From NCBI GenBank assembly GCA_000004985.1, contig GG738940.1: DNA of 39,839 nucleotides, one strand, 5' to 3'. This DNA is from Naegleria gruberi (lineage: Eukaryota). The notes below the pieces were generated by a model, which saw only the letters and a program-made list of their open reading frames with translations, did not search any database and was not told the origin of the DNA. Both the position numbers and the translations under genes were made by a program. Shown here piece after piece: positions 2,998 to 38,200 of the stretch. Every line of letters starts with the position of its first letter. Positions within the stretch are counted from its first letter, which is position 1.

Positions 2998-3070
2998 TCC
3001 CGTGTAGTCCAATGGCTAGGATACCTGGCTTTCACCCAGGAGGTCCGGGTTCAATTCCCGGCATGGGAGG
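2998..3070 (+). tRNA. tRNA-Glu (anticodon UUC)
   Basis: The sequence is TCCCGTGTAGTCCAATGGCTAGGATACCTGGCTTTCACCCAGGAGGTCCGGGTTCAATTCCCGGCATGGGAG(G). It has a 7-bp acceptor stem with one G-U pair. The anticodon stem is CCTGG/CCAGG with loop CTTTCAC, so the anticodon is TTC. The T-arm is CCGGG-TTCAATT-CCCGG with the GTTC motif. It closely resembles eukaryotic tRNA-Glu-TTC genes. Confidence 0.85.
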
Positions 3071-3162
3071 ATGATTTTACCCTTTAAATATTATTATCAT
3101 AAATTGTTGTCTTTATTTCTCATGTTATATTCAAGGTGATTAGAGAAAAATTGTCAATTATT

Positions 3163-4429: not shown

Positions 4430-5455
4430 TTTCGTATAGTTCAATAGAGTTTCTGCTGCCTTATTCACATACTTTATAAGTTTATCATTGGCAGTCATGA
4501 CAACAATTGCATCAACCATTCCTTCAAGAATTTGAATAAGTTCACTACTTTCCTCATTAGAATCTCTTAAACTTGAAGAGATTGTTGGTGGTGATTTGTT
4601 TGTTGGTAAAGAAATATTTGAAGAAATGTAAAGTTTCAGATAACGTTGTCCTGAATTTCTGTAATTTGCCAAACAAAGTTTAAAATCATCTTCCTTCTTC
4701 AATGTAATAATATCATCATCTTCATCCTTATATTTCAATTGAATTTGATTGGTAGAGGAAAGAATTGGTTTTCTAGATAAAACTTCCATTTTAACTTTTT
4801 GTAAAGTTAACTCATCCTCAGGAGAGAATCTTAAAATTGTTGCATCTGATTGATTTTCAAGAGAATCATAACATTTAATCATTATATCACTAGTAGGAAT
4901 ATTACTATTCGAATTAAAACTATGAACACTATCATTATCATTCATTGTTGATTGATAGGAAGTCATTGACCTAGTTTCCAGTGATGGTTTTCCTTGCATT
5001 ATTGTTCCTTGATAACTTGATTGATTTTCCATTGTTGTATTGCTGGTAGAGGAGGGTGGATCATCTTCCTCTGTGAGAAATTCATTGTGTTGAACTAGGT
5101 AGTCTAATTGTTTTTTCAATCTTTTACGATGACCTAATTTGGATATTTTCAAGTCTTTGACTAAATCATCATCAGTTAATTCTAATAATTCTGCACCTGT
5201 AATATCCCTATATATATATATATATAAAATATTGAAATTGGAAGAATAAACGAAAGAAGAATTAACCTACATTTTTTCAAATTCCTTGCAATAGTCTTGC
5301 AAATCAATTGATTTTAACCACAGAGACACATCTTTAGCACTCCAATCACAAATAGCCTTTTCCAATAACTTTTTCCTAATTTTAATCTTTTCATCGTCGT
5401 CAGTGGTGGATGTTGAATTTTTGTTACCCTTGAAGAAACCAGCAAGTTTTTTCAT
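4430..5455 (-). CDS. SAM-PB1-PAS domain protein, 5' portion. Exon 1 is 5455..5271, the intron is 5270..5208 (63 nt, GT..AG), and exon 2 runs from 5207 down into the gap.
   Basis: The SAM domain is split by the intron: ...WSAKDVSLWLKSIDLQDYCKEFEK | MDITGAELLELTDDDLVKDLKISKLGHRKRLKKQLDYL. The PB1 domain is ILRFSPEDELTLQKVKMEVL...QLKYKDEDDDIITLKKEDDF (type-I/II PB1 signature YKDEDGD). A PAS-like start (ILEGMVDAIVVMTANDKLIKYVNKAAETLL) then runs into the gap. Confidence 0.6.
5209..5226. repeat. (TA)9 microsatellite inside the intron of the SAM-PB1-PAS gene
   Basis: tatatatatatatatata read directly. Confidence 0.9.
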
Positions 5456-11986: not shown

Positions 11987-13249
11987 TTAGTGGAACAACA
12001 TTTTAGAGATCAAATCAGGACCTAATTCTTCATAATCAGCACGTCTAATCCAACGATCTTGGAATGAAGACAAACTTGAAAGAATTGAACCACCAATCCA
12101 AACTGAATATTTACGTTCAGGAGGAGCAATAATTCGTAATCTAACAGCACCACCTACCATACGTGTCATTTCACGTGTTAAACGTTCTTGAATACCCTTA
12201 ATAAGAGTATTACCACCAGAGAGAATGACATTCTTAAACATATTCTTTCTGATATCCATATTACAATGTTGAATTGAGGTATTTAACAATTCGTGAATAC
12301 CCAATTCTTCTGAACCAATCATATTTGGTTGGAACAAAATTTCTGCAGCTTGGAAACGTTCACAATCAATATTAATAAATGTACCATCTGGTAATTGGAA
12401 TTGATTTCTGAATTCATTCTTCTTTGATTCTTGGAATAATTTCAAAGTGTGATCATAATTCAAAGCAACATAACATGAAGCTTCCTTAACATCACGAACG
12501 AAATCTAATGAAGCACTATTTTGTGTAAAATCATATCCAGAATGTTGTAACATTAATTTTGTTAAATGATTAGTAATATCACAACCTGCCAATTCACTTT
12601 TTAACATGGCATATGTTTGAGGATAACCTTCAAACACTGGAACAACGTGTGTCGATCCATCACCTGAATCTAAAACAATACCATCTAAATCACCAGTTGC
12701 ATATATTGAGAGCAATCCTTGAATTGCAAAGAATAATGAATGTGATTGGAATTTTTCAAATAATAATTGAATATACTGTTGACGATGAGTGACTGATGTC
12801 AATGGTTGTTCTGTCAATAAAATTGGGTGATCTTTTGGATTAACACGTAAATGGAAATGATAAATATGTTCTAATAACAATTCAATATCATCCCAATTTT
12901 GAACACCTTTACCTCCACGATTAATTGGATGAGATAATTCACAAATACCCTTTCTTTGATGGGCTTCCAATCCAACAAAATATGATTTTGCTTCATTCAT
13001 TTTCTCTCTTGCTCCAAATAATTTACGAGTGTCGACATGACTTTTTGGTTTTCCAATAATTGTTGGGAAAACTGCTTTTGGAAATTGTTCTCCTGCCAAT
13101 CCTGCTTTAACAAAACTACTTCCCAAATCACAAACAATGGCTCCTTGATGGTCACGAATTAAATTCATGGTATTGATGTGTCCGGTATGAGCAACAATGG
13201 TATCATCATTGATAGCTTGTGCTCTCTTATTATATGGTATATAGGACAT
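11987..13249 (-). CDS. actin-related protein (Arp1/Arp2-like; actin fold)
   Basis: IVCDLGSSFVKAGLAGEQFPKAVFPTIIGKPK corresponds to the actin N-terminal phosphate-1 region. The sequence also has LLTEQPL, IVLDSGDGSTHVVPVFEGY, SVWIGGSILSSLSSFQDRWI and a GPDLISKMLFH tail. I estimate roughly 40% identity to actin by eye, and there is an N-terminal extension. Confidence 0.75.
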   Translation of the reverse strand: MSYIPYNKRAQAINDDTIVAHTGHINTMNLIRDHQGAIVCDLGSSFVKAGLAGEQFPKAVFPTIIGKPKSHVDTRKLFGAREKMNEAKSYFVGLEAHQRKGICELSHPINRGGKGVQNWDDIELLLEHIYHFHLRVNPKDHPILLTEQPLTSVTHRQQYIQLLFEKFQSHSLFFAIQGLLSIYATGDLDGIVLDSGDGSTHVVPVFEGYPQTYAMLKSELAGCDITNHLTKLMLQHSGYDFTQNSASLDFVRDVKEASCYVALNYDHTLKLFQESKKNEFRNQFQLPDGTFINIDCERFQAAEILFQPNMIGSEELGIHELLNTSIQHCNMDIRKNMFKNVILSGGNTLIKGIQERLTREMTRMVGGAVRLRIIAPPERKYSVWIGGSILSSLSSFQDRWIRRADYEELGPDLISKMLFH

Positions 13250-13499: not shown

Positions 13500-14627
13500 T
13501 TAATCCTTCTTTTTCTTCTTCTTGTCATCCTCATCATCGGAATCATCCACGTCATCTTCTCTGATATCATCCAATCCTCTTCCAACTAATTTTCTCCAAA
13601 CAATCTTTGAAATTAAGGAAAACCAAAAGATGTGAAGACAAACCAACATTGCCATCAAAGCGATCAAAGCCCAATATGGACTTAAACAATAACGTTGGAG
13701 GCAAATACCATAATCACTAACTTCAATAGGAGTCACGGAATCACTCACATAACGTACCAGATAATATCTTGATGGATAATCCCAACCTGCATAATTTGTC
13801 AATGATTTAAGAATAAGTGATGGGAAGTAAATTAATCTCAACAATAAGAAAGCCAACACAAAGAGAACAAATAATGCTGTAGTGGTGGATTCCCTTGCTT
13901 TCATGTGTTTAGAAGCCTTGGCACAGTAGAGAAAAATATCGACAACATCATGTAAAATTAATACTAATGTTCCAATACGATGATAATAAACGGAAATACA
14001 ACCATAAATCAAGCCAATAGTAACCAAGTGATGAACGAGCATTTCCCAGAAATCCTTCATCTTTTCATCAACAAAAATCAGTGTAAATAAAGCTTGAACA
14101 TAGAAACCTGCTCCTACAAGCAAATATTCTCTCATAAGTGGATATTCAAAGCCAGTGTGTTGTTCAGGATAACCAATAATTAAATGATTTAAATCAAATA
14201 ACCACGGAGTTTGTTGCAAAATTAAAAAGCCTGCAATTGATGATATTGTATAATAAAGAGAAAACCAAGTATTTTCTTGAACTCTGTGAGCTTTAGCTGC
14301 AGCTTCCTTTTCATCCTTTTTATCATTTGATTTCTTGTTCAATCCAAATAAGTGAGCAACAATTTTTTCAATAACAAGTCGTCTAACAATAAAGATAATC
14401 ACAGCAGAAATTAATACAAATTGTGTATCTTGATAAAGCCAATTACTTCTTCTTATTGGTGCAGGTTCATTACTACCAAAAATCATAGGGAAGGAATGCG
14501 GTGGACCATTTATAATACCTTCTTTTTGTGTATAAAGATAGGAATTATTAGATCCCATCACTCCGAACCAAGAATCAACCACGTGATAAAACAAGTTACC
14601 ACCAGCAGCTGTTTGAGATGAAGACAT
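13500..14627 (-). CDS. ceramide synthase (TLC / Lag1-type) multi-pass membrane protein with an acidic-then-lysine C-terminal tail
   Basis: The Lag1 motif is present: HHLVTIGLIYGCISVYYHRIGTLVLILHDVVDIFLYCAKASKHMK (conserved HH ... D..D..L..K). Several TM helices are predicted. The C-terminus reads DDVDDSDDEDDKKKKKKD. Confidence 0.75.
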   Translation of the reverse strand: MSSSQTAAGGNLFYHVVDSWFGVMGSNNSYLYTQKEGIINGPPHSFPMIFGSNEPAPIRRSNWLYQDTQFVLISAVIIFIVRRLVIEKIVAHLFGLNKKSNDKKDEKEAAAKAHRVQENTWFSLYYTISSIAGFLILQQTPWLFDLNHLIIGYPEQHTGFEYPLMREYLLVGAGFYVQALFTLIFVDEKMKDFWEMLVHHLVTIGLIYGCISVYYHRIGTLVLILHDVVDIFLYCAKASKHMKARESTTTALFVLFVLAFLLLRLIYFPSLILKSLTNYAGWDYPSRYYLVRYVSDSVTPIEVSDYGICLQRYCLSPYWALIALMAMLVCLHIFWFSLISKIVWRKLVGRGLDDIREDDVDDSDDEDDKKKKKKD

Positions 14628-15183: not shown

Positions 15184-18100
15184 ATGGAAAATATTGCCTT
15201 CTTTATTCAAAATGTTCAAAAAATTGGATTAAAATGTGAATGGACAATTAGAGCATTACACAAAAATTCTGATCTTAATTCTGTTTTGAAAACTGTAATT
15301 GATTTATCAAAACATTTTGAAACCAAGTTTAGAAATTCAAATGCAGTCCAATCTAAAAACAGTAGTAGTGAAGAGGAATTATTTACTGGACCTTTCTTGA
15401 AATTACCAATTTTATTTAAACAACCATCAAATGCAACTATTGAAGTGAATGCTTCTGTACCAATGTGGAAAAGTGCATTAAGAAAGACAACCAGTGGTGT
15501 GAAATTAACAAGTGAAACTGAAACAACAACAACTCCAGCAACGACAACGACTGAGGAAAAAACATCAACTCCTACTGCCACAACTCCAATAGAGAAATCT
15601 TCACCAACAACTTTACAAAATACAGTTTCAACTCCTTCTACAGTAGAAGTTAAACCAGAAACTAAAACAACTGCATCAAATTCTAATGCAAGTTCTACTG
15701 CCACTAGTTCAAAAAGTACTGCCACTGCAAGTAAGCAGCAACCAACACAAGAAGTTGTGGAAAAGAAAGTTGAACCAACAAACAAGGATGTTAAAACAAC
15801 ATCCGCCACTGTTGCTACCAAGGAAGTGACCACAAAAACACCAGTAACTACTGAGGTCAATCCAACAAGTGATAAAAAGACAGCAACAGGAACTTCTGCA
15901 AATAATGGCAGTAGCTCAAGTTCGACATCTAATTCATCTACTGGAAATTCATCACCAAGAGAAAAGATTCCTGACAAGACTTCTCCAACAACTGCTGCTA
16001 TTCCTTCTAAGGCAATTTTAAAGCCAACTAGCAAGACAAGCAATAATACTCCTTCTACCCCTCAATCAAGTGGACAAGTGCCTGGGGAATGGACTAAATT
16101 GAAGCCAACAAATTCTGGAAATAACCTCAAAGAAGCTGCCAACTCTGAAAAGCAACCTGAATTTTTAACAAATCGATTAAGACCTGTCTCTGTAAAGATG
16201 AACGCATCACCACTATCTGAAGCACTCAAGAATGAAAATTCAACAAAGGAAACCCCAAGTACAACTGCACCTGTGGTCGAAAAGCAACCAGTGACTAAGG
16301 TTGAACCAGTTAAAGATGTCAAGACTACAACTCCTGTTACTACTAAGGAAGTTACCACAACACCTGTCAAGGAAGAAAAGCTAATTCCTCAAAAAACAAC
16401 TCCTCCAAAAGAGGTTACACCAAGTAAGGATGTTAAAAAAGATCCAGTTTCAACTCCTCAAGAAGCATCTCCTAATACTGGAGTTTCATATTTGGCTAAT
16501 TTGAAATCTACACATGCTAAGAATGTCTCAACTCCAACATCAAATGAAGTGCCAAATTTCAAGGCCCAACTGAAACCAGTTGCCAAACCAGCAAATGAAC
16601 CTTCAAATAATACACCAACATCAGTAAGTGCAACAACAGGAGGCGGTATTTTCCCAGTTCAATTGAAAAAAACAAACATTTCACTTGCATCTTTGGAAAA
16701 TAAGGAAACAACCTCTCCTTCAGGTTCCAACACAAAAACCAATTCAGGATTCGGCTCTCCAAGAAGTGATTCTGGATCAAGTACTACAAATACCAGTCAA
16801 TATGTGGCTAATGAATCTACTGCAGATTCATTGTCTGAAGATGGATCAAGTGTAATGGACTTTGATGAAGATGAAGAAGACATGAGTAATGATCAAGGAA
16901 TTTCTTATAATATTAAGAAATTGAAAGATCAAGTCACTAATCAACATCCTTCTGCTGAATATTTGTACTCACTTTACAAACTTATTGAGAAGAAATCAGT
17001 GAAATGGTGTACAAAATTCTCAGATCAAGAAGGAGGTGCCAAATATCTTGGCCAAATCATCACAACCATGAATGAAAAGAAATATAGAAGTATGAATGAA
17101 AAAACAGTTCAAGAAAGAAGTTTGAAATGTTGTCACGCTCTGATTGAAAAGGGTATTTTTGATCCATTCCTCAAGAATCCAAGTTCTGTTTCTGCGATTA
17201 CTTTCATGATTGATTCAAAAGATGGTATCAAGATTAGAATTATGGCTTTGGAAATCTTGTCATTGATTTGTACTTATAATGAACAAGGTTTTTGGACAGT
17301 TCTGGAAGGGTTAAACAGATACAAAACAGAAAAGAAGGAACCAAGAAGATTCCGTGACTTGATTGAATTCCTTAAAGTAGAAAAGGATGAAAAGTTGAAA
17401 ACTTTCTGTTTAATGTTATTGAACTCACTTATTAACACTCCTCAAGATTCGTTTATTAGAATTTTGATCAGAAATGAATTGAAACAACTTGGATTGGAAA
17501 CAGTTGTTGATAAATTGAGTAATGATCTGCAACATGATAGAATTAGAGATGAAAATTTGAAAGAACAAATTAAAGTTTTCGAAGAAGAAATGATGATTGG
17601 TTTAATTGAAAAAGAACAAGCAGGTGTTTCAGATGATTCTGAGAACACAACTGAAAATCTCTTTAAGAATTTCAAATCCGAGACTGATCCATTGAAAATT
17701 GTCAAATTACTCATCTTGAGATTGGGTGCCACAACTGGTACCTCACATTTGGTATCTATTTTACAAAATTTACTTTCCTACTCGATGAGTTCAAGTATGG
17801 ATCCAAAGTTTGAACCACAATTATTAACAAGTTGGAAGAATTTGGACAATACCATTAAATCAATGGTTCAAGCTTGTCAAATGAAAGGAGATAGTGGTAT
17901 TATTGAAGATATTGCCAAGAAGGAAAAGAATGCCAGTTTTGAGAAACAAAAACAAACTTCCAAGATTTCAAACCTCAACTTGACTATTGAAAAAACCAAC
18001 AAGGAAATTGACGAGTTGAAGAAACAAGTTGAAAATTGGAAGGTCAAATTCAATGAATCAACAAAGAATATTTCTATTCTTTCTAACCAATTGAATAATC

Positions 18101-20352
18101 TCCAAGCCAATAAGGACAACAATGCTCAACCAAATGATGTTAAAGTTGAACCAGTTCAACAAATTATTCCAATTGATACACAAATTTTCACAAAAGAAAT
18201 TGATGAACTGAAATTACTCGTTAAAGAAAAAGAGGATTCCGTAGAGAATGTAAATAAGGAGAATGACAAGCTCAAGGATCAGTTGAAAGAATTGTTAATG
18301 GAATTGGAAGAACACAGAAGAATGTCCTTCAAACAATCCTTACAAACTACTACAGGAACAGTCAGATCTAATTCTAGCAATACTTCGAGCATCTCTGAGG
18401 TCAGCAATCAGAATAGTGCTGTCATTGATCTAGAACCTTCTTTCACAACCGGTGCTGCTGGTTCTGGATTTGTACCTCCACCTCCAGGAGCTAGTGGTAG
18501 TGGATTTGTACCTCCACCTCCAACTGGAGCCTCTTCTGGTGGTTCCAGTCCTAATATTCCTCAAGTTCCAAACATGACTGGAGCTGGTTTACCTCCTCCA
18601 CCTCCTTCTGGTATTGTATCAATGTCAAAGAAGAATCCACTACCAGAATTATCAAAGAGAGCTCCAAAGAGTGCAGTTAAAAACTTTTATGGTGTTGCCA
18701 TCAATAGACATAAGGTTTCACAAACATGTTGGGTTAAAGGTGGTATTGCAGCTGAGTCTAAGGAAGTTCAAATTGATGAAGATGAATTGGAAGACTTGTT
18801 CTCAAATGCTCCAAAAAAGAACAACAAAGACGAGGAAAAGAAGCGTAAGGAATTGATATCATTTGTTGAACCACAAAAAGGAAGCGCTCTCTCAATTTTA
18901 TTGGGATATATTCGATTGGATTATTCTGAGATTAAGAGAGCCATTTTAGAAATGGATGAGGAAGTTTTGACTGCTCAAGTTGTTGATACTCTAAAGGATA
19001 AGATGGCAACTGCTGATGAATTGTCACAAATTGAGGCATACAATGGCGATGCAGATTTATTATCACCTGTAGATAAGTTTTATTTGGCCCTCAAGGATGT
19101 TCCAAGATTGGAAGGAAGATTATTCTGTTGGGCTTCAGATTTAAATTCCAAACAGAAGTATCAGAAGTTTTATCTGATTTGGAAACAGTTTTAACTGCTT
19201 CCACTCAAGTAGTTCAAAGTAGTAGATTTAAGAGATTGTTAGCTGTTATTTTGGCTATTGCTAACTTTTTGAATGCAAACTCTTCATCAAAGAAGAACGC
19301 CTATGGGTTCACATTGAACAGTTTGTCCAAGTTGCAAGACACCAAGACATCAGATAACAAGTCATCTCTCTTACAATATATCAGTTCATATTGTGAAAAA
19401 TCATTCCCTGATCTATTGAATATTAAGGAAGATTTTTCATCATTGGAGGATGCTACTCGTGTTTCCCTCGTTGAATCAGATAATGAATACAGAAAGTTAA
19501 AACAAGGATTTGAAACTATGGAAAGAGAATTACAGAATCCACAATGGGAATCCACAACTTTCAAGAATAACATGAGTGAATTCATGGAAAGTGCCACAAG
19601 ATTTTTAGATGATATTGATTCAATCTTATCAAAGATTGATGAGAAGTTAAAACAAATTGCTGAAGATTTTGCTGAGGACGAAAAGACAGTTTGTAAGAAT
19701 CCAAATGAACTCTTCCAAACCCTCAACAATTTCCTCAATAACTTTAGAAATGGTTATGAAGAACTTGTGAAACAGAGAGAAGCTGACGAAAAGAAGAAAC
19801 TCAAACAAAAAATCATGGAAGAAAAGAAGAAACAATCGGCTGCCTTCTTTTCCAATCATACCAACATGAGAAGTGAGNNNNNNNNNNNNNNNNNNNNNNN
19901 NNNNNNNNNNNNNNNNNNNNNNNNNNNGAAGCAACGATGCTCTCAAATCATCAACCATTACCAATGTACAGCAACAACCAGCAACTACGAGTCCACAAGA
20001 TTCAATTATTCCATCTTCACCACCTCCTCCACCTCCTGTTTCCTCTTCTTTAGAATCATCATCATCATCTACAAGTGAAATTGAATCATTCAATCCTCCA
20101 ACAATCAATACAGAACCAGTGTCATCGACAATTAACACAGAAACGTTATCAACAAGTACTCCAATTGAAGCTGAAACATCTGTAACAACACCATCATCAC
20201 AAGAAACCTCCTCTTCAGATGTAATGTCAGAGGCTGAACATTTAGAACTGTTGACCAAGATGAGAGACAGAAAGAAGAGTATTATGAGTGGATCTGCATT
20301 CAGAGAAAGAAGAATGACAAGATTTGCTATGGAAAGCAATGAACAACAATAA
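15184..20352 (+). CDS. diaphanous-related formin with an S/T-rich N-terminus, GBD/FH3, coiled coil, FH1 poly-Pro, FH2 and C-terminal DAD. The frame changes at ~19129 (GGG run), and the 50-N gap at 19878..19927 also changes the frame.
   Basis: The armadillo-like GBD/FH3 region reads KWCTKFSDQEGGAKYLGQIITTM...ALEILSLICTYNEQGFW. The FH1 region has GFVPPPPGASGSGFVPPPPTG...GLPPPPPSG. The FH2 region has KNFYGVAINRHKVSQTCWVK...LEGRLFCW, and continues in the -1 frame as GFRFKFQTEVSEV...NANSSSKKNAYGFTLNSLSKLQDTKTSDNKSSLL. After the gap, the adjacent frame carries a DAD-like tail: MSEAEHLELLTKMRDRKKSIMSGSAFRERRMTR (compare mDia ...MDSLLEAL..SGAAFRRKR). Confidence 0.8.
19878..19927. other. assembly gap (50 N) inside the formin 3' region
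   Basis: N run. Confidence 0.99.
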
Positions 20353-22855: not shown

Positions 22856-23319
22856 TGTTTTTTATATTGTTGTTGCTGTTGTTGTGGGATTGGACATCAT
22901 TCAAAGTTGTCAACATTCGTTTAGTTTCTTCCATTTTCGTTTATTGATCAAATTTCGTATTTAAAATTATTGGAAAGAACTATTAGGGAAAGTCTAGTCG
23001 ACATCTTACACGTTGGAATACTTTATTTTGCATTCAATTTCAAAAATATTAATATAGGTAGCAATTAAATTCAGTAATCAACCAAAAAAGGAAAAGTTAT
23101 CTTTCGAATTTAGAGAATGAACATAAATGCTGAGGAAAACATTGTTTTTAAGAAATTTCAAATCCATAAATCTTTTCAATACAATCCTGATATCTTCTTT
23201 CTATTTCTGGAAATTCACCAGAAATGGAGAATTTCTTGCTTTTACAAGCCAATTAATTGACAATAAATACTCACAACATGAGTTTAATTGTTACTACTAA
23301 AAAAATCAAAATCATCAAA

Positions 23320-23934
23320 ATGAAATTAATTCTTCTTGGTTTAGTTGTGCTCCTTTCGTCTGCTTTCTTTTTAACTTCAACGGTTAAGGCCATTGTCCAA
23401 TTTGGAAAATGTAACGATCAGATGCAATACAAACAAAATCTTCAAGTGAGTTCCCTTGTGGGTCTTTGGTATCAAGTTGCCACTTATAGAACTTTTTTGG
23501 AACGTGGAGTTTGTGCCTCCATTAATGTTACCTTAAGTAGTGATGGTTCTATGCTCAACATTGCTGAATCTCATTATAGAGGTGGTAGAAAGGACTATTT
23601 CAATTTAACTGCATCCCCAAATGCTACTACTCCTGCTAAAATGATAGTTTCCTATCAAGTACCACAAAGAAGAGACCAATTCGAAACTGTTCAATTTCCA
23701 ATACAAGTAGTCGATACTGACTATATCAGTTATTTACTCGTCTGGTCATGTGAGAATAGTAGAACTGCCTTGTATAGCAATGAAATGGCCTGGCTCTATG
23801 TAAGAACACTTGATGAAGCTTCCCATTACCAAATGAGAACTAAAGTTTGGGATCGATTGGAAGATTTTGGAATGAGAAGAACCTATTTCCAAGAAACTAG
23901 ACAAACAATGTGTGATTATAAGGAATTAGAATAG
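23320..23934 (+). CDS. secreted lipocalin (apolipoprotein D / Blc-like)
   Basis: The signal peptide is MKLILLGLVVLLSSAFFLTSTVKA. The lipocalin SCR1 motif is VGLWYQVATY (G-x-W-Y/F). An SCR2-like motif, TDYISYLLVWSCE, resembles TDYENYALVYSC of ApoD. The first ATG of the track ORF (23257) lies upstream of the signal peptide, so I place the start at 23320. Confidence 0.65.
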   Translation: MKLILLGLVVLLSSAFFLTSTVKAIVQFGKCNDQMQYKQNLQVSSLVGLWYQVATYRTFLERGVCASINVTLSSDGSMLNIAESHYRGGRKDYFNLTASPNATTPAKMIVSYQVPQRRDQFETVQFPIQVVDTDYISYLLVWSCENSRTALYSNEMAWLYVRTLDEASHYQMRTKVWDRLEDFGMRRTYFQETRQTMCDYKELE

Positions 23935-23990: not shown

Positions 23991-26900
23991 TTATTTTGTC
24001 TCGAGAATTGATTGTAACTTATTCAATTGTAAACTAATCTCTGTAAATGAAGGACGACTAGAAGGATCCTTATCCCAACAAACTTTTATCAGCTCTATAA
24101 ATTTCCTAGTAAATTCTGATAATTTTTCCAATGATAATTTCTTCTCTGTTGGTAAAATAAATTCACTCAACCAAACATTCATCTCCTCATTGGTAGAGAA
24201 GGGTATTTTAGGTCTTGATCCCTTTAACACATTCAATAGAACATTGTATTCATTCATACTATTTGATGAATCATTTGATCCAAATCTGTGAATTTTGTAA
24301 ACTCTAGAATTGTAATAACAGTGTTCTTCAAAGAAAACTTCCCACATGATAATGGAGAAACTGTACACATCGACCTTGGTGGTATAGGATCCACTTTCAA
24401 TCATTTCTGATGCTATATAGAAAATTGTGCCTATATTCTTAGTTGAGGCACTATCATTAGGTGTTGATAATCCAAAATCTGAAACCTTTCCAATAAAATC
24501 ATCAGTAATGAGAATATTTCCTGGTTTTAAATCTCTGAAGATGGAAATTAAAAATCAATCCAAATGATGAAACTTACCTGTGAATTATAGGAGGATTCAA
24601 TGTGTGAAGATATTTCATTCCGTTGGCAACTGAAATTAAAATATCAAGTTTTCTTTTCAAATTTAAAGTAGAAACTCCTATTCTTGAATTGTAAATCAAT
24701 CGATCCAAACTTCCATGATTAATATACTCCACAACCATATATCTGTGATTGGAGGTCATGGAAATTCCATAAAATTTGACAATATTTGGATGAGATAAAC
24801 TATTTAAAATTGCTGCTTCTCTTTCAAAATCACCTATTTCATCTCCAATTGTATCTGACTTGAGTGATTTGATAGCAACTTGTTTACCTTTCCATTTACC
24901 CAAATAAACAATCCCATTACTTCCCTCTCCTATTTTCTTTTCAATTGAAATTTCTTCAATTGGAATAATCAAAGATTGTGAAGAATTGGAATTATTTGAA
25001 TTGACCAAAAGTGGTTGACTTTCATAATAGAATGAATTTTCAATAATTTTGTCTTCCAAATTCTTTTCGGCAATTTCCTTTCTCTTGAGACGGTTTAGTT
25101 TCACATAAATATGTCTCACTCCTCTGAATGTAAGAATCAATAAAAGAATGATAACAATCATTAATAGAATTCCCAGAACCACACTTATTGGAATGATAAT
25201 TAGAGCAGAATTATCAACAATTGTATCATAACAAACGAAACCCGTAGAAAGTGGATTTTGAAGTTCTTTTCCCTTTGGACAATCTAAAATATTAATGGTG
25301 ATATTCTGAACAATATTTTGGATTGTAATATGTCCGTGTACTTGTTTCAGTTGTCTTTCTTCTATGGCAAGTGAATAGGTTACTGCATTCAGTTGATTTG
25401 GAATAAACTTTTTCGAATAAATCATACCATCTGATAAAGAAACAAAAACGTCCACTTGACTTTGTAACTTTTTGACTGGAACTCTTTCTCCATTATTGTA
25501 GGTCTGTAAATTTTCTATACTAATTGTCAGCTCTTGTCCTGGATATTGAGAGTAGATAATATCTTGATTTTCAATTACTTTTGTAACAACAGTATTATTA
25601 CCAGATATTACATCTACAGAAAGTGTGATATTGTTAAGCGGTTCTCCAATGAAATCTCCATACGATCCGGCTTCATTATGATCCTTCAAGAGAAAACTTG
25701 ATTCAATATATGGACCTGGCTCTGAAATATAAATGCAACCTCCAGAGAATAGCGCACGACTATATTTACACTCCAAATAATCCAAAATCACGAATGGTTT
25801 TGGATTTTCAACAAAAATAGCACCTCCAAGTTGGGCAGTATTATAGTCCATTGTAGCTCTCAATTCCAAAGGATCAGTACCCAATAATTTGGCATAGATA
25901 GCACCTCCCATTAGGGCACTATTGTTGTAAGCGAGTAGGTCTAATGCAATTGTCAGTCCTTCAATATAGACAGCACCTCCTTTCACTGCCTTGTTTCCGT
26001 TAAAATAGCCATCCTTAATTTGAATGGTATTTGCCTTAATATAAACTCCATTTGGTATTGTTAAATCTCCATTATTGTTAAAATCACAACTATCTAGTAG
26101 GAAAGATGACTGGACAACATCCATCAATGAATCAACACGTAGGGAAATACTAGTATTTCTAAAGTTAGTTTGAAAAAGTGAAATGTAATTGCTTTGAGAA
26201 ACGCTGATACCATTCTTAACATTATCAAAATTATTCACTTGGAACATTGTTTGTAAAGTGTTTGCAATTTGGAATACTGGATTGTTTGAAAGCAAATTAT
26301 TAAAATCATTCCATCCTATGTATAAAACATTTATGTAATAGGCAGAGAATTGAAAGTCCCCATTGCTCACCTTATTATTTTCAAATTTTGAAGACGTCAA
26401 AAAGCTCTGTCTAATAGTTACAGAGCCAGTGAAGGTATTGTGTGAAATATGAGAGGTGGATGTTCTATAAATCAAAAAATCTGAATCCTTCACTCTACTG
26501 TGAAATAAGGAAAATCCTTGTTCAACGGCAAACATGTCTTCTTGAGAAGAGGAAATAAATTGATACTTTTCAATGGTACAATTATTGAAAAATGTGCCAG
26601 GATCGAAAGATGGAATCTCTTGTACGTGTTTGATGTTTCTAAGTGTGGAATCTGTAAAATTTGCTGTAACAGTTGCATAAAATTCAACAAATTCCAATTG
26701 AGAATTTACAATGGATACAGAAATTGTTCCAAACTGACGACTTGATTCATAAATTAATGAATTATTCAGAATAGAATTCTCAATCTCTATCAATGGAACT
26801 GAAACCAAAGTATTGTCATCATTATTCATACTAAAATCATATAGTTCCAATCTCGACAACTTTAATCTATTCATGGCATTTAAATAAGTAAAGAGAGATC

Positions 26901-27375
26901 TTCCATTACATTTAAATTGAATCCTCTTGCTCTGATTAAATGGTTCCAAAATCAGACTCTGCAATGGTTGATAAGGTGCCATTCCACACTTATATTCTCC
27001 ATCCATCAAATAGACATGAACTCGAGTATTTCCAATAGAATTGGCATAGGAAATGGCATCTTCTACACTCTTGCAAGGATTATTCGGGGATGTACAATTG
27101 TGTTCCGTATTTAATGATGATGGCTGAACATAGACAATTGAATAATCATCAGATGATGAGAATGGCAACTGTTGATCTAATGATACTGATGACGGTGGTG
27201 ATGAATAATTAACTTTGTGTCCATATGGAGTGAATTCTCTTCTGGCCATACTAGTTCTCTGACCATAATGATCTCGCGGTTGTGTTGTTGTTTTTGTTGT
27301 TGTAGTCAGCACTGCTGGTAGTAGGTACCACATGAATAACAAAATGAAAATCGGGGAGATTTGGTGTCGCTTCAT
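23991..27375 (-). CDS. receptor-type TKL protein kinase with a signal peptide, a Pmp-repeat / parallel beta-helix ectodomain (GGA[IV][YF] repeats), one TM helix and a C-terminal kinase domain. Exon 1 is 27375..24578, the intron is 24577..24535 (43 nt, GT..AG), and exon 2 is 24534..23991.
   Basis: The signal peptide is MKRHQISPIFILLFMWYLLPAVL. Four F-x-x-N...GGA(V/I)(Y/F) units are present (KAVKGGAVYIEG, SALMGGAIYAKL, TAQLGGAIFVEN, ALFSGGCIYISE). The TM helix is IIIPISVVLGILLMIVIILLLILTF. The kinase domain reads IGEGSNGIVYLGKWKGKQVAIKSLK ... HTLNPPIIHR | DLKPGNILITDD...KVSDFGLS...VDVYSFSIIMWEV. The splice gives the HRDLKPGN catalytic loop, with the R codon spanning the junction. Confidence 0.75.
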
Positions 27376-27522: not shown

Positions 27523-29592
27523 TTACTGATCTAATAAAAATTCATCTAAGAATTCTTCTAATCTAGTGTGAAGGTCATTGTGAGGAGAGTCCAACATTGG
27601 TGGAGCTGAACTCACAAAGGATGTATCAATTTCATGAAGGAATTTCTCAAGTTCTAGACAAACTTCTGAAGGTTGAGCTGAAGCTGCCTTATATTTGCTT
27701 CGCATAACATTGAATGCTCTGAGATCTTTCCTCAGTAATGTAAGGTAATCAGTATTGTTATGTATCAGCGATCCAGTATGTCTGAGAGTTTTGGCTTTTT
27801 CTAAATGGACTTTTGCAGCTGCATTTAAAAAGGCGATAAGCTCCAAAGGAAAAACAGGGAACCATGGATTTTCAGTGAGTGCTGTAATTTGAATAGCACT
27901 TTGGTCTATCATTCCAGAAATTACAACAGAATCCCGTTGTGGTGATTTGGATAGAATTGAAATTCTAGCTCCATCTAGAATAAATTGATAAACTAGTTCT
28001 ATAATTTCCAAATAAAATTTGGAGCTTTCTGATGCAGAAATATTAGATCGTTCTATTGCCTTTGATTGATTGAGAATCATTTCTACCAAGCTCCAAATTT
28101 CAAAACAATTTTCAGCTGTAATTTCCGTATTGAGAATATTAATCCACTCAGCAGGGAATGGCTTTCTATGTAAAAATTCAAAAATGGCTGGCAGCCTCTT
28201 TAGAATATCTTCCACTGTAAGATCTTTCAGTTCCCTATTATCTATAAATATTATTCTGTCAAAATAAAATATCCAACCCTGTAAATTTTGTTGATATTCA
28301 GTCATAGAATCAATATCACAATCCTGTGGGAATAGTTTCTTCTCGAAAAAGGTCAAAATTTGCAAGTAGAATTTACAATTTTCAAATCTTCCTGACCAAA
28401 GTTCATATACAATAAGCTTACAATATGCCCCAGCAACCATAAAACTAGAAAAATTATCAAACACTCTAGACAGGCACTTTTTGGCCTTTTCAGCTGATTT
28501 TTCTGCTTGTTCATGAAGTCCGTATTGACATTCACAGAGTGCCTTGATAGAAAAATAGATTGAAGGCATTTCAAAATCGACTAGAGTATTGAGATCTTGA
28601 TTCTCATCAAATTTTCCAGCAAAATTTTCCAGCTCCTGCCTTGACAATAGTGGATAACCTCCAGCTACAACATCATAATAGAAATCAATCATGTTAGGTT
28701 TAGAAAGAGAAGATGTGAGAGCTGTTGATTCACTTGGTGAAGTTTTGTTAGTGGTAGTATTAGTCTTTGGTTTTGAATATGGTTCATATTGAGTTTCAGT
28801 TCTCTTCTTTTGTACAATTGATGGTGGTTGAATGTTTGGTTTCTTTTTCAAATTCCTCTTTGATTCTCTATAGTGACAATTAATTCCTCGTTGTTGGCAT
28901 GAATAACAAGATGGTTTTCTCTTATCACATTTTCTATTTGAATTATTAATTGAAAAAAGATTAGAAGAATACACGTACCTATGTTGTGATCTACAATGGT
29001 CGCATGCAATAGGAGAAAACTCTTCTGTTGACTGCTCCACAACTGTTGTACTATTAGATTTTGAATTATTACTACTATCACTACTATTTGGACTAGTATT
29101 AGAGAATATTATTGTTTCGGAATTTGTTTTTCCCAACAAAATATCACTATTTGAATCAACTATTGCCGTATTAGCTCCTCCTACTACTGTATGCATCAAA
29201 TTATTATTACTACTATTGTCAAGACTTGGATTAATTGCAGCAAAATTAAATAATTCTAAAAAGGTGCTTGGCATCATGCCTCCTCCTCCCTGCATCATCA
29301 TCATCATGTTATGTAATTGAATATCCATCTCTGAATTACTATTTTGTGTCGAAGACGAACCAACACCATGATTAAAGGCTATTGCTGGTCCCGATTCGGC
29401 TTGAAAATATGAAGAAGGAGCAGTTGAATTCATTGCCGAAGAAGAAGAAGACAGAGGCGAACCAAACGGAAACAATGAAAATCCATGTTGTTCTTGCTGT
29501 TGTTGTTGAGTATTCTGCTGCTGATACATGAAACTATTAAAATTATTATTAAAATTATTTGATGAATTCGGAGAGTTGAAATCTTGGTTCAT
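27523..29592 (-). CDS. Zn(2)-Cys(6) binuclear-cluster transcription factor, Q/N-rich; paralog of the 9590..11304 gene. It contains an in-frame 45-nt GT..AG intron at 28978..28934.
   Basis: The cluster reads ...IACDHCRSQHR[YVYSSNLFSINNSNR]KCDKRKPSCYSCQQRGINC. The bracketed 15 codons are gtacgtg...aatag. Removing them restores the C-x2-C-x6-C-x6-C-x2-C-x6-C spacing. Poly-Q and Asn-rich tracts flank the cluster. Confidence 0.65.
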   Translation of the reverse strand: MNQDFNSPNSSNNFNNNFNSFMYQQQNTQQQQQEQHGFSLFPFGSPLSSSSSAMNSTAPSSYFQAESGPAIAFNHGVGSSSTQNSNSEMDIQLHNMMMMMQGGGGMMPSTFLELFNFAAINPSLDNSSNNNLMHTVVGGANTAIVDSNSDILLGKTNSETIIFSNTSPNSSDSSNNSKSNSTTVVEQSTEEFSPIACDHCRSQHRYVYSSNLFSINNSNRKCDKRKPSCYSCQQRGINCHYRESKRNLKKKPNIQPPSIVQKKRTETQYEPYSKPKTNTTTNKTSPSESTALTSSLSKPNMIDFYYDVVAGGYPLLSRQELENFAGKFDENQDLNTLVDFEMPSIYFSIKALCECQYGLHEQAEKSAEKAKKCLSRVFDNFSSFMVAGAYCKLIVYELWSGRFENCKFYLQILTFFEKKLFPQDCDIDSMTEYQQNLQGWIFYFDRIIFIDNRELKDLTVEDILKRLPAIFEFLHRKPFPAEWINILNTEITAENCFEIWSLVEMILNQSKAIERSNISASESSKFYLEIIELVYQFILDGARISILSKSPQRDSVVISGMIDQSAIQITALTENPWFPVFPLELIAFLNAAAKVHLEKAKTLRHTGSLIHNNTDYLTLLRKDLRAFNVMRSKYKAASAQPSEVCLELEKFLHEIDTSFVSSAPPMLDSPHNDLHTRLEEFLDEFLLDQ

Positions 29593-35254: not shown

Positions 35255-38200
35255 ATGGGTCTCAAGAAAGGTGCAAACAAGACTAAAACCTCCAAAACCA
35301 ATATTAGAGCAAAGGTGGTTGAATCCATTCAACGAACTCCAAAAATTACCATTGAACAGAACCGAGCTGTTAATATTCCTCGGTATCATCAAATTATATT
35401 TTCTGATCTGATCAGTAAAGAGAACTCATTGGGTGAAGCACACTGTGAGAAACCAACCACTCCATTCCTTTCTGACTCAACCGACACTGAATGTCATAAC
35501 TTTAGAGTTATGCTTGACATTATTGGTCAAGAAATCAAGTTGAGAAACGTTCAAAACCTGGAAGATGTACTGACCAGATTACGTGAACCATACAAAAAGC
35601 CAAAACAACATACGTACGAAAATCTTCCATGGGTTCTCAAAGTAGATGCTGTAACTTGGATTCAAATCTTTCTCAATTGTTGTGATGATTTTACAAGAAC
35701 AACAGTAATAAGACATATTTTACAATGCTCATCCATGCCTGTTCCTTTCATTCAAAGAGCAAATTTTGAACAAGATGGTAAATTGTCAGCTTTCAATCTA
35801 GATTACATTTTAAACGACAACGAATTACCGGTTCTTGAACAAAAGATGCTTCTCTGCTTGGACATGGGTGATAATGGTACAATAATGAAGCAATTAGTAA
35901 GAGGTTACAAGCAAATTGAATCCACGTCCATGGAATTGAGAGATGGTAATGTTGGACTATATGTCAATAGTAATTGTAAATATCCAATTGTTGCTCATAT
36001 CAACGATGAATTCAAAGCTGTTCCGTCAACCTTGAAGTCTATGCTTTCAATTGTTGATGCAGTGCTATTCATATTTGATCAGGATGGTTCACCTGAAGTT
36101 ATGGAACTCATTATAGATGAAATGAAACAGAGTAATTTGCCATACTACATGATATCTAAAGTGTCAAAGAGAACATTGGATGATTCAGATGATGCAGTGT
36201 TCGAAGAGGAGGATTATCATCCAACTCAAGGTTCCAATGATATTATTACCTGGATTAATACCATCGTCAAAACTCCTAAAAAGAGTACCTTCCAATATCC
36301 TCCCGATGTAGAAATTATCAAGAGCTATCCTATCTTTGAAAATGATCCATTAAGAGAGTTTTATTCCATTCTATTCGAGACTTTAAAAAGTGAGAAAGAT
36401 ACTGAGGGTGCAGATTTCAAAAAGAAATATTTTCCAATTACAACACATGCAAATGCAATTCAAGAAATGCAAGATCAAGTGTTTGCAAACAAGCAACTTC
36501 CATACTCAACGAAGAAAGAAGAAGAAGATTTCATTGCCCTTGGAAAGGTTACCTCTGAAAAGTATTTGACTCAAAATCCTTCCAAATTCATGATTAAACT
36601 TTTGAAGGCATTGAAATTGGCTGTAGAGAATAATTTGTTTCAACAATTATGGAATGTTTTTACATTTCATATTCATATTTTTGCCTATCCAAAAGTTCAA
36701 AACATTAAGCAAGAAGTACTTGGTTTAATTGATCAAATTGAAGAGCTTGAAAATTCGAATCAGCAACCTAATGAACCTCAAGCTAAGGACTTGGAAAAGA
36801 AAAAGTCAGAGTTGGAACAAGAAAAGAAAAAATTAGAGAGAAAAATGCAATCAGAATCGATTGGTGTTGAACATTTCTGGAGAGAAATTTTCCATATTTG
36901 GGTACAAATGGATAAGAAAACTATTGAGAATGTCTCAAAGAACAATGTAATGTCAGCAATACAATGTGCTATGATGACAGGATTCCCCATTGAAATTATT
37001 GATGGCGACTCCAACTCAATTAATGAACATTTCTTAGAAGAATTCTTTACAAAGCTGCCAAGCGATATTGCAAAAAGTAGAGTTCTATTTGTTTCAATTC
37101 TTGGCCATCAAAGTTCTTACAAAAGTACTGTTATGAACTCACTATTTAATAGTCAGTTTTCAATGGGTCAAGGAAAATGTACAAGAGGTGTTCAAATTTC
37201 CTTACACAAGTGTTCGCACACATCAAAATATGATTATATTGTTGCTTGTGATGTTGAAGGTTTAGAATCTGTTGAAATGGAGATTAACAAGAACTCTTCT
37301 TTTAATTCATTCTTTTATAATCATAGATTGGCTTTAGTTTCTATTTACTTGTCGCATTTAGTTCTTATTTCAAGTAAGGGTGAAGTTGACGCAACATTAA
37401 CAGGTACATTAGAAGTCTGTATTTATGCCATGGCCATGTTGAAGAAGACATTATCTCATCCTTCATTCTGTGTGGTTTCAAACAATTGTACTGACACTAA
37501 ACAAGATGCATTACTTCACAATGACAAAATCAAACAGTTATTAGTGAGAGGAGTCTCTAAATTCAATGAGCACTTTAATGAAGACGTCCAATTATCAGAT
37601 CTGGTTCCATCTCGTGAGTGCATGTATTTGACACCTGCTTTTGAACCAGAAACTAAAAACTTTACCAGAAGTTATAGTTACAGAGTACGAAAGTTGTTGG
37701 ACTATATTTTGACAATTCCAACACATCAAGATTTCTCAAACTTTGGTTCTTGGGTAACCAATCTATTGAGTGCGTGGAAATCTTTGAGAGAACACGATTT
37801 CGCTCTCTGTTATAAAGACTTGACAGAGTTAGAAAACTTCCAACAACTGAAAAACATAGGCAAAGAGTATGAGTCTTCTGTGGCACTTGAATTGGAACAA
37901 TTGGTATTGAAATATCGTACGGAAAACGTTGATTACTTGGAAGTTATTGCCAAAATTGAAGACCTTGCCTTTCAAGTATTTGAAAACTATAAGGAAAAAA
38001 TCAAAGAAGACAAATTCATGTTATGGAAAGACAAATTTACAATCAATTTTGATAATTTCAAGAATGATTACATAACAAAAAAGAAAGCAGAGATGAAAGT
38101 TGTTCAGGCATTTAAAAATACTACCAATCAAGTTGGTGACGCTATTCAGCAAGTTAACAGAAAAATCAAAGAGGAATATCAGCTATTGAAACAAATGTCA

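What the first reader, a model, noticed from the sequence alone, without database searches (positions are those of the whole stretch)
23991..27375. Receptor TKL kinase whose ectodomain is built of chlamydial-Pmp-type GGA(I/V)(Y/F) beta-helix repeats
A single gene joins a secretory signal peptide and four F-x-x-N...GGAIY-type repeats (a parallel beta-helix fold usually seen in bacterial adhesins and autotransporters). After these come a TM helix and a tyrosine-kinase-like domain (HRDLKPGN, DFG). This adhesin-like ectodomain fused to a cytoplasmic TKL kinase is a striking receptor architecture and hints at a cell-surface sensing or adhesion role. The 43-nt intron splits the HRD catalytic-loop codon.
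Basis: partly seen in the sequence, partly recalled or inferred. Interest (0 to 1): 0.55.

Follow-up and report, generated by a model that had tools for sequence, protein, structure and literature searches.

The report
Naegleria beta-helix (PMP-repeat) receptor kinase
This is a real two-exon gene of the amoeba Naegleria gruberi encoding a single-pass membrane receptor kinase whose outer part is a long beta-helix ending in four "polymorphic membrane protein"-type repeats, a receptor design I found in databases but not described in the papers searched.

Summary
The window is a whole 39.8-kb Naegleria gruberi scaffold. On the minus strand, exon 1 (27375-24578), a 43-nt GTAAGT..CAG intron (24577-24535) and exon 2 (24534-23991) encode 1113 aa. 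The parts are a signal-peptide-like N-terminus, a ~650-aa ectodomain, one TM helix (723-750) and a complete kinase domain (809-1102, Pfam E=1e-53).

The intron splits the Arg codon of HRD. Two things support it: a gap-free alignment to the 77%-identical paralog NAEGRDRAFT_50874, and an intron at the same codon and phase in a divergent metagenomic homolog.

Corrections:
- Only one GGA motif follows a strict FxxN.
- "Chlamydial" names the repeat, not its origin.
- The public model (891 aa) lacks the signal peptide and exon 2.
- Protostelid Amoebozoa have the same design.

Verdict: a new variant of a known kind, of moderate interest. Ligand and function are inferred only.

The parts
24578..27375 (-). 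Exon 1 (codons 1-932 plus the first two bases of Arg933): signal peptide, ectodomain, TM helix, juxtamembrane segment and kinase N-lobe up to H-R of HRD
   Evidence: ORF listing, sequence, splice reconstruction. tblastn of the parts maps only here in the window.
24535..24577 (-). 43-nt intron GTAAGT...CTTCAG, phase 2, splitting AG|A (Arg933 of HRD). If retained it gives an immediate TAA stop.
   Evidence: Gap-free alignment across the junction to the paralog P0002. A 52-nt intron at the identical codon and phase in the homolog L001, 4149-4200.
23991..24534 (-). Exon 2: last base of Arg933, then DLKPGN...DFG...kinase C-lobe to residue 1113 and the stop codon (23991-23993)
   Evidence: The Pfam kinase match runs through to residue 1102 only in the spliced product.
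27304..27375 (-). Signal-peptide-like N-terminus (residues 1-24: MKRHQ + ISPIFILLFMWYLLPAVL)
   Evidence: Kyte-Doolittle windows above 1.8 at residues 5-27. ISPIF(I/F)LLFM is conserved in the paralog upstream of the annotated start. No SignalP was run.
25651..27153 (-). Right-handed parallel beta-helix ectodomain (residues ~75-575), with a conserved N-terminal Cys pair (NCT..NPC, C94/C101) and a capping helix. Eight of the ectodomain's 11 N-x-S/T sequons fall in this part.
25708..26022 (-). Block of four PMP-type coils (residues ~452-556): FNGNKAVKGGAVY, AYNNSALMGGAIY, DYNTAQLGGAIF, KYSRALFSGGCIY
   Evidence: Motif positions and chance estimate. TIGR01376 at 17.6 bits, above its cut-off of 15. 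Pfam Chlam_PMP at 11.5 bits, below 20.6. Profile hits concentrate on this block. The GGA columns are invariant in the four-member family alignment.
25210..25650 (-). Membrane-proximal beta-rich stalk (residues 576-722) with no family assignment. It has a conserved YPGQ motif and a DCPxG...P....C Cys pair (C699/C715).
   Evidence: Conserved columns in A2. No Pfam hit. Low-confidence beta strands in the model, pLDDT 34-60.
25126..25209 (-). Single transmembrane helix (residues 723-750), followed by a basic cluster (FRGVRHIYVKLNRLKRKE), which puts the C-terminus in the cytoplasm
   Evidence: Hydropathy up to 3.5. The positive-inside rule is read from the sequence. Conserved in all family members.
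24027..24951 (-). Protein kinase domain (residues 809-1102, interrupted by the intron): GEGSNG 816, VAIK 833, HRDLKPGN 932, DFG 952, ASE 974 (in place of APE), DVYSF 988, CWDKDPSSRP 1085. A family-specific insert lies between subdomains IX and XI.
   Evidence: PF07714 E=1.2e-53 and PF00069 E=7.6e-52. Motifs. Best solved relatives are CTR1, TAK1, TNNI3K, MLK, DLK and Roco4. The insert is conserved in L001.

Best explanation
The locus encodes a type I, single-pass receptor-like protein kinase of Naegleria gruberi. It is locus NAEGRDRAFT_76208, and the public model is truncated at both ends.

Shown:
- A cleavable-looking signal sequence.
- An ectodomain that is one long right-handed parallel beta-helix (residues ~75-575). 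Its last four coils are canonical PMP-type GGA(I/V)(Y/F) coils. Its upstream coils keep only FxxN-like asparagine ladders.
- A ~150-aa beta-rich stalk with a conserved Cys pair.
- One TM helix with a basic cytoplasmic flank.
- A kinase domain with every catalytic residue (Gly loop, VAIK Lys, alphaC Glu, HRDLKxxN, DFG), most similar to TKL kinases of the CTR1/Raf, TAK1 and MLK type.

Inferred: the beta-helix is displayed outside the cell, or in the lumen of an endocytic compartment. There it binds an extended ligand such as a glycan, a cell-wall polymer or a surface protein, as other beta-helix adhesins and glycan-binding proteins do. Ligand-driven clustering or dimerisation then activates the cytoplasmic Ser/Thr-type (possibly dual-specificity) kinase by trans-phosphorylation. 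This would couple contact with prey, substrate or other cells to intracellular signalling.
For: Gene model. The paralog P0002 aligns end to end at 77% identity with no gap at the exon junction. The intron position and phase are conserved in the divergent homolog L001 (54% identity in the kinase, 37% from the PMP block to the C-terminus).

Topology.

PMP repeats.

Beta-helix fold.

Kinase integrity and TKL affinity.

Conservation of the whole architecture: N. fowleri (P0005/P0152) and an environmental relative (P0020/L001). Similar signal peptide, PMP array, TM and kinase proteins occur in Protostelium nocturnum and Planoprotostelium fungivorum.

General precedent: protist transmembrane kinases commonly pair lineage-specific ectodomains with conserved kinase domains (PMC10463195). 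TM-anchored PMP proteins of Trichomonas mediate adherence (PMC6701047 and bioRxiv 10.1101/454884).
Against: There is no expression, localisation, ligand or activity data. The splice has comparative support only, with no RNA evidence.

Pfam's own Chlam_PMP cut-off is not reached by this protein alone. The signal peptide is judged from hydropathy only.

The AlphaFold model is of moderate confidence (pLDDT 71). It is poor for residues ~160-190 and for the stalk, and its alignment was enriched in PMP fragments, which could bias it toward a beta-helix.

The APE motif is ASE. Tagged Trichomonas PMP proteins were mostly found in ER, Golgi and lysosomes (PMC6701047), so a cell-surface location is not assured.
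Confidence: 0.75

Rival explanations
1. Membrane-tethered carbohydrate-active enzyme. The beta-helix ectodomain would be a polysaccharide lyase, hydrolase or epimerase that degrades or remodels prey or biofilm glycans. The kinase would report or regulate that activity, rather than the ectodomain acting as a passive ligand binder.
Against: The matches are at fold level only (5-15% identity). Non-enzymatic adhesins (PfbA, EtpA, HMW1, pertactin, Vag8, UpaB) score almost as high. Sequence homology is specifically to PMP repeats, which have no known catalytic role. No CAZyme Pfam family was hit. No catalytic site was examined.
Confidence: 0.12
2. Endomembrane or phagosomal kinase. The protein would reside on endocytic or phagosomal vesicles with the beta-helix in the lumen. 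It would regulate phagosome maturation or trafficking rather than sense at the cell surface. This would be analogous to the vesicle-associated receptor-like kinases of Dictyostelium (recalled from memory, not tested).
For: Tagged TM-anchored PMP proteins of Trichomonas localise mainly to ER, Golgi and lysosomes (PMC6701047). Naegleria is a phagotroph. The topology found here fits a luminal ectodomain equally well.
Against: No sorting motif analysis or localisation data exist for this protein. Eleven N-glycosylation sequons and a long rigid ectodomain are typical of surface proteins. This differs from the main explanation only in location.
Confidence: 0.1
3. Annotation artefact or non-functional gene. 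The ectodomain-TM part and the kinase C-lobe would be separate or decayed genes, or the kinase would be a pseudokinase scaffold.
For: The public model XP_002668877.1 stops at ...IIHR and omits exon 2. APE is replaced by ASE.
Against: The ectodomain, TM helix and kinase N-lobe share one uninterrupted 933-codon ORF. Exon 2 continues precisely with DLKPGN...DFG and completes the Pfam domain. The paralog model is full length and colinear. The same intron site is found in a 37-54% identical homolog, with both exons conserved. All catalytic residues are present.
Confidence: 0.03

Closest known systems
Chlamydial polymorphic membrane proteins (Pmps; Pfam PF02415 Chlam_PMP, TIGR01376 POMP_repeat)
   Same: Both have repeated GGA(I/L/V) and FxxN-type motifs that each mark one coil of a right-handed beta-helix displayed outside the cell (PMC10715098, PMC11166332). 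Here there are four GGA coils and a predicted beta-helix.
   Different: Pmps are bacterial type V autotransporters with a 'Pmp middle' region and a C-terminal beta-barrel. This protein has neither. It has only four canonical coils, and it is anchored by a TM helix and fused to a kinase. The closest PF02415 hits are environmental sequences plus some archaeal, bacterial and eukaryotic entries, and none of the hits that carried an organism name was chlamydial.
Trichomonad Pmp-like surface proteins (e.g. TVAG_212570)
   Same: These are eukaryotic proteins with N-terminal FxxN/GGA repeats that lack the autotransporter domain and are anchored by one C-terminal TM helix. They are implicated in adherence (PMC6701047).
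   Different: Their cytoplasmic part is a short tail with endocytic motifs, not a kinase, and no signal peptides were detectable in them (PMC6701047). Here the tail is a ~360-aa juxtamembrane segment plus kinase domain.
Protostelid (Amoebozoa) PMP-array receptor kinases: Protostelium nocturnum EP01117_P008853 and P011690; Planoprotostelium fungivorum PRP79755.1 ('CTR1-like')
   Same: The order of parts is the same: signal peptide, PMP-repeat ectodomain, single TM helix, C-terminal PK_Tyr_Ser-Thr kinase.
   Different: Their ectodomains are twice as long, with about 10 tandem blocks matching only the PMP part of the Naegleria profile. They have no counterpart of the Naegleria N-terminal helix or stalk. 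Their catalytic loops are tyrosine-kinase-like (HRDLAARN, HRDLSARN), and kinase identity to the window protein is only ~30%. Common descent of the fusion is therefore not shown, and independent assembly is plausible.
TKL-group kinases such as Arabidopsis CTR1 (Raf-like MAPKKK), TAK1 and MLK/DLK
   Same: These are the best solved-structure relatives (CTR1 E=3.5e-42, including the shared NPPI(V/I)HRDLK motif). They share HRDLKxxN together with tyrosine-kinase-like subdomains IX and XI.
   Different: Those kinases are cytosolic. This one is the cytoplasmic domain of a transmembrane receptor, has ASE for APE, and carries an extra insert between subdomains IX and XI.
Single-pass transmembrane kinases of protists, plants and animals (Entamoeba TMKs, oomycete and plant LRR-RLKs, animal RTK/STKR)
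   Same: The general logic is the same: a lineage-specific ectodomain, one TM helix, and a TK/TKL-related kinase (PMC10463195).
   Different: The ectodomain class is different. A PMP-type beta-helix ectodomain is not mentioned in that survey's main text: 'PMP', 'beta-helix', 'Chlamydia' and 'Naegleria' each gave 0 hits.

Membership tests
PMP / POMP repeat-containing proteins (PF02415, TIGR01376) | Match to the curated repeat model above its cut-off | tested here: inconclusive
   This protein scores 11.5 bits against Pfam's 20.6 cut-off (E=0.42), so Pfam is not met. NCBIfam TIGR01376 gives 17.6 bits against a cut-off of 15, so that is met. The paralog scores 21.6 bits and P0020 and P0005 score 25.4 and 25.6 bits, so all three meet Pfam. 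The longer N. fowleri model P0152 scores 17.6 bits, which is not met.
PMP / POMP repeat-containing proteins (PF02415, TIGR01376) | Repeated GGA(I/L/V) and FxxN tetrapeptides at coil spacing | tested here: met
   There are four GG(A/C)(I/V)(Y/F) motifs at 466, 490, 517 and 545, spaced 24-28 aa, with P~3e-13. There are 10 strict FxxN in the ectodomain against 3.8 expected, but only one directly precedes a GGA.
PMP / POMP repeat-containing proteins (PF02415, TIGR01376) | Detectable homology to bona fide PF02415 proteins | tested here: met
   582 representatives at E<=1e-3 and 30 at E<=1e-10, aligned to residues ~425-585. Nine of 10 sampled hits pass the Chlam_PMP cut-off. Nearly all of the 120 listed hits carry PF02415.
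Chlamydial Pmp autotransporters | C-terminal autotransporter beta-barrel and Pmp middle domain | tested here: not met
   Pfam finds no autotransporter or Pmp-middle match at E<=1. The C-terminus is a TM helix plus a kinase. The protein is therefore not a member of this family and shares only the repeat module.
Right-handed parallel beta-helix (pectin-lyase-like) fold | Three-stranded coils stacked into a right-handed helix | tested here: met
Eukaryotic protein kinase, catalytically competent | Gly loop, VAIK Lys, alphaC Glu, HRD Asp, catalytic-loop Asn, DFG Asp | tested here: met
   GEGSNG 816, VAIK 833, FEREAAIL, HRDLKPGN 932 and DFG 952. PF07714 gives 182.5 bits over model positions 1-257 of 258. 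Activity itself cannot be tested with these tools.
TKL (tyrosine-kinase-like) group | Closest to TKL members, with a Ser/Thr-type catalytic loop plus TK-like subdomains IX and XI | tested here: met
   The top PDB relatives are CTR1 (3.5e-42), TAK1, TNNI3K, DLK, MLK and Roco4. True tyrosine kinases follow closely (1e-38 to 1e-31). HRDLKPGN, DVYSF and CWDKDPSSRPSF are present.
TKL (tyrosine-kinase-like) group | Placement inside the TKL clade in a kinome-wide phylogeny or by group-specific HMMs | not tested
   No kinase-group HMM library or reference kinome was available.
Type I receptor-like kinase | N-terminal signal peptide, one TM helix, N-out/C-in orientation | tested here: met
   Hydropathy shows the signal-like segment at 5-27 and the TM at 723-750. 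A basic cluster follows the TM directly. The same layout is found in the paralog, P0020 and P0152. Dedicated predictors (SignalP, DeepTMHMM) were not available.
Type I receptor-like kinase | Ligand-dependent activation | not testable with these tools
   This needs experiments.

The most novel reading that the evidence does not exclude
PMP-type beta-helix receptor kinases are a previously unrecognised class of contact or pattern-recognition receptors of phagotrophic amoebae. A bacterial-type adhesin module, ultimately acquired from prokaryotes, would have been joined to TK/TKL kinases independently in Heterolobosea (Naegleria) and Amoebozoa (protostelids). The receptors would sense prey or substrate surface polymers and trigger feeding, adhesion or differentiation responses.
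Probability: 0.2. Interest if true: 0.65.

Novelty: new variant of a known kind. Interest (0 to 1): 0.4.

Why it matters
Little is known about how free-living amoebae such as Naegleria sense prey and surfaces. The genus includes the brain-eating N. fowleri, which has an ortholog of this gene.

This gene adds a new ectodomain class, a PMP-type beta-helix, to the catalogue of eukaryotic single-pass receptor kinases. The same combination recurs in a second supergroup. This is a concrete example of adhesin-like modules being recombined with kinase domains.

It also corrects a truncated public gene model, which hides both the signal peptide and half of the kinase. Surveys based on the deposited proteome would therefore misclassify the protein. 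The practical value is a defined candidate for localisation, ligand-binding and kinase assays.

Tried and rejected
- AlphaFold with only the two N. gruberi paralogs as alignment gave pLDDT 36 and was discarded. A 56-row alignment was needed.
- The paralog's genomic locus could not be fetched. Its intron could not be checked directly, so the environmental homolog L001 was used instead.
- The word-indexed profile search did not return the family members P0020 and P0152 even though they were in the query alignment. Its hit list is therefore not a census.
- No other copy of the ectodomain or kinase lies in this window.
- Among 270 fetched ectodomain relatives, only the Naegleria-type proteins carry a kinase.
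- Genomic context of the best PMP-only hit, P0153, was uninformative about the repeat's origin.
- Literature searches found no description of a PMP-repeat or beta-helix receptor kinase, nor of these locus tags.
- A possible 51-nt in-frame GTCAGA..AAAG intron lies in the linker after the signal peptide. It corresponds to part of a 29-residue segment absent from the paralog. I left it as coding because the 5' site is non-canonical and there is no transcript evidence.
Full report
**Source and gene model.** The window is an entire 39,839-bp scaffold of Naegleria gruberi. The ectodomain query returned a 100%-identical 'predicted protein [Naegleria gruberi]' whose longest contig is 39,839 bp (accessions EFC36133.1 / XP_002668877.1, NAEGRDRAFT_76208). 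On the minus strand a 933-codon ORF runs from the ATG at 27375 to 24574. It ends because CAC AGG TAA reads into a 43-nt GTAAGT...CTTCAG intron at 24577-24535. Splicing joins AG|A, the Arg codon of His-Arg-Asp, and continues with DLKPGN to a TAA at 23993-23991. The result is a 3342-nt CDS of 1113 aa.

The deposited model (891 aa) starts at Met43 and stops at ...IIHR. It therefore lacks both the signal peptide and the kinase C-lobe.

**Support for the splice and the start.** The N. gruberi paralog NAEGRDRAFT_50874 (P0002, 1136 aa) is 77% identical from residue 1 to 1113. It has no gap at the junction (PPIIHRDLKPGN against PPLIHRDLKPGN), and the hydrophobic N-terminus upstream of the annotated start is conserved (ISPIFILLFM against ISPIFFLLFM).

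A divergent homolog sits on a 6.1-kb metagenome contig (P0020/L001). There it is called as two genes. Between them lies a 52-nt GT..AG intron at exactly the same codon and phase (CAC AG|...|A GAT TTA AAA CCA GGA AAT). Splicing it yields a 1149-aa protein that is 54% identical in the kinase and 37% identical from the PMP block to the C-terminus.

The fusion of ectodomain and kinase does not depend on the intron. The TM helix and the kinase N-lobe are in the same ORF as the ectodomain. No transcript data were available.

**Topology.** Hydropathy gives an N-terminal segment (residues 5-27, preceded by MKRH) and one strong TM segment at ~723-750. This is followed by FRGVRHIYVKLNRLKRKE, so the C-terminus is cytoplasmic by the positive-inside rule. 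The ectodomain has 11 N-x-S/T sequons and 10 cysteines.

**The repeats.**
- GG[AC][IV][YF] occurs four times (466, 490, 517, 545), spaced 24-28 residues. Composition predicts 0.0016 occurrences, Poisson P(>=4) is ~3e-13, and no more than one appeared in any of 20,000 shuffles.
- Pfam's Chlam_PMP model is below threshold for this protein alone (11.5 bits, E=0.42, cut-off 20.6).
- NCBIfam TIGR01376 POMP_repeat is above its cut-off (17.6 against 15).
- Family members pass Pfam: the paralog at 21.6 bits, and P0020 and P0005 at 25.4 and 25.6 bits.
- An exhaustive HMMER search with the two-paralog ectodomain profile found 582 representatives at E<=1e-3 and 30 at E<=1e-10. Almost all align only to profile positions ~400-560, which are residues ~425-585, and most match in several stretches (coverage histogram).
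- Nine of ten sampled hits pass the Chlam_PMP cut-off, several also with Beta_helix PF13229.
- A four-member family profile gave 205 hits, and nearly all of the 120 listed carry PF02415.
Only the first GGA is preceded by a strict FxxN (FNGN 458). The others have AYNN, DYNT and KYSR. FxxN-bearing coils without GGA continue upstream at 331, 378, 401 and 432. There are 10 strict FxxN in the ectodomain against 3.8 expected.

- Adhesins: PfbA (18.7), EtpA (18.6), Vag8, HMW1, pertactin and UpaB.

Foldseek gave the same classes with weak scores. The whole ectodomain from ~75 to ~575 is therefore best read as one beta-helix. Only its C-terminal coils keep the canonical PMP signature.

The family alignment also shows a conserved N-terminal NCT..PC Cys pair followed by a helix. 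In the stalk it shows YPGQ and DCPxG...P....C motifs. The stalk has no family assignment.

**Kinase.** PF07714 (E=1.2e-53) and PF00069 (E=7.6e-52) cover residues 809-1102 essentially end to end. All catalytic motifs are present: GEGSNG, VAIK, FEREAAIL, HRDLKPGN and DFG. ASE replaces APE. DVYSF and CWDKDPSSRPSF are of the TK/TKL type.

The best solved relatives are Arabidopsis CTR1 (3.5e-42, sharing NPPI(V/I)HRDLK), TAK1, TNNI3K, DLK, MLK and Dictyostelium Roco4. True tyrosine kinases follow a few orders of magnitude behind. This supports TKL, but no kinome-wide phylogeny was done. An insert between subdomains IX and XI is conserved in the L001 homolog.

**Distribution.**
- Whole-ectodomain relatives are few: the paralog; N. 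fowleri FDP41_009157 (629-aa NCBI model named by UniRef 'Right handed beta helix domain-containing protein', with a 915-aa version that includes the TM and the start of the kinase); and the metagenomic P0020.
- No second copy lies in the window.
- Among 270 fetched ectodomain relatives, only these carry a kinase. The family looks small (two copies in N. gruberi), not expanded.
- A full-length search did bring up three amoebozoan proteins: Protostelium nocturnum P0273 and P0272, and Planoprotostelium fungivorum PRP79755.1. Each has a signal peptide, a 1300-1500-aa ectodomain made of ~10 blocks matching only the PMP part of the Naegleria profile, one TM segment, and a kinase with a tyrosine-kinase-like HRDLAARN or HRDLSARN loop, ~30% identical to this one.
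- The design therefore exists in two eukaryotic supergroups. Nothing here shows that the fusions share an origin.

**Mechanism.** The parts list and topology of a type I receptor-like kinase, with an intact catalytic core, are shown. The rest is inferred. The rigid, glycosylated beta-helix would bind an extended ligand outside the cell or in an endocytic lumen. Clustering would then activate the kinase.

Two precedents apply. Chlamydial Pmps are beta-helical adhesins defined by the same tetrapeptides (PMC10715098, PMC11166332). TM-anchored Pmp-like proteins of Trichomonas promote adherence but have short tails with endocytic motifs and were seen mostly in ER, Golgi and lysosomes (PMC6701047).

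I consider three rivals less likely:
- A catalytic ectodomain, because of the tailspike and lyase structural neighbours. The similarity is at fold level only.
- A vesicular rather than surface location.
- An artefactual or dead gene, which the colinear paralog, the conserved intron site and the intact motifs contradict.

**Comparison and novelty.** The protein is not a chlamydial Pmp, because it has no autotransporter barrel or middle domain. 'Chlamydial' is only the historical name of a repeat found across bacteria, archaea and eukaryotes; the named hits include Methanobrevibacter, cyanobacteria, Tribonema and Tieghemostelium.

It is a member of the broad class of single-pass transmembrane kinases, whose ectodomains are known to be lineage-specific in protists (PMC10463195). 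That survey's main text does not mention PMP, beta-helix or Naegleria. Searches for the locus tags and for PMP-kinase combinations found nothing.

I therefore rate it a new variant of a known kind. It is a real and correctly read architecture that exists in databases as mis-modelled 'predicted proteins', and I could not find it described. Interest is moderate (0.4). A new ectodomain on a protist receptor kinase is not in itself surprising. The recurrence in Naegleria, including the pathogen N. fowleri, and in protostelids gives a testable lead on how amoebae sense surfaces.

Noticed in passing
window 23991-27375 (-): The public model of this gene (XP_002668877.1 / NAEGRDRAFT_76208, 891 aa) starts at Met43 and ends at ...IIHR inside the unrecognised intron. 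It therefore lacks the signal peptide and the kinase C-lobe. The N. fowleri ortholog model (FDP41_009157, 629 aa) and the metagenomic homolog (called as two genes) are truncated in similar ways.
   Followed up: yes
window 27523-29592 (-), intron 28934-28978: The neighbouring 689-codon ORF has no Pfam hit when read through. Removing a 45-nt in-frame GTACGT..AATAG intron turns CDHCRSQHR[15 aa]KCDKRKPSCYSCQQRGINC into a canonical fungal-type Zn(2)-Cys(6) cluster (PF00172, 42 bits, E=1e-10). This is a Zn2Cys6 transcription-factor-like gene in a heterolobosean.
   Followed up: yes
window ~27212-27262 (-): The window protein has a 29-residue segment after the signal peptide that the paralog lacks. 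Part of it coincides with a possible 51-nt in-frame GTCAGA...AAAG intron. The 5' site is non-canonical and this was not resolved.
   Followed up: partly
window 23257-23934 (+): A small secreted-looking lipocalin-like protein (PF00061, E=2.5e-7, with a hydrophobic N-terminus) is encoded convergently. Its stop lies only ~56 bp from the kinase gene's stop.
   Followed up: partly
window 3000-5000: GC content drops to 17-21%, against ~32% elsewhere. Long ORFs overlap on both strands (3605-5152 minus, 3611-4447 plus). TRF finds no tandem repeats. The nature of this region was not determined.
   Followed up: partly
window 123-1610, 11987-13249, 13500-14627, 15184-19194, 35255-39664: Other genes on the scaffold are an E2F/DP-family factor, an actin, a TLC-domain (ceramide-synthase-like) protein, a formin and a URGCP-like GTPase. 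The formin has FH3 plus an FH2 match that stops at model position 179 of 372 near the ORF end, so another unrecognised intron is likely. None is obviously linked to the kinase.
   Followed up: no
P0271, P0272, P0273 (Planoprotostelium fungivorum, Protostelium nocturnum): Amoebozoan proteins of 1650-1830 aa have a signal peptide, 13-19 GG[AS][ILVM] motifs (a looser pattern than GGA(I/L/V)), one TM segment and a tyrosine-kinase-like HRDLAARN or HRDLSARN kinase. One is auto-named 'CTR1-like'. This is a much larger version of the same receptor design.
   Followed up: partly
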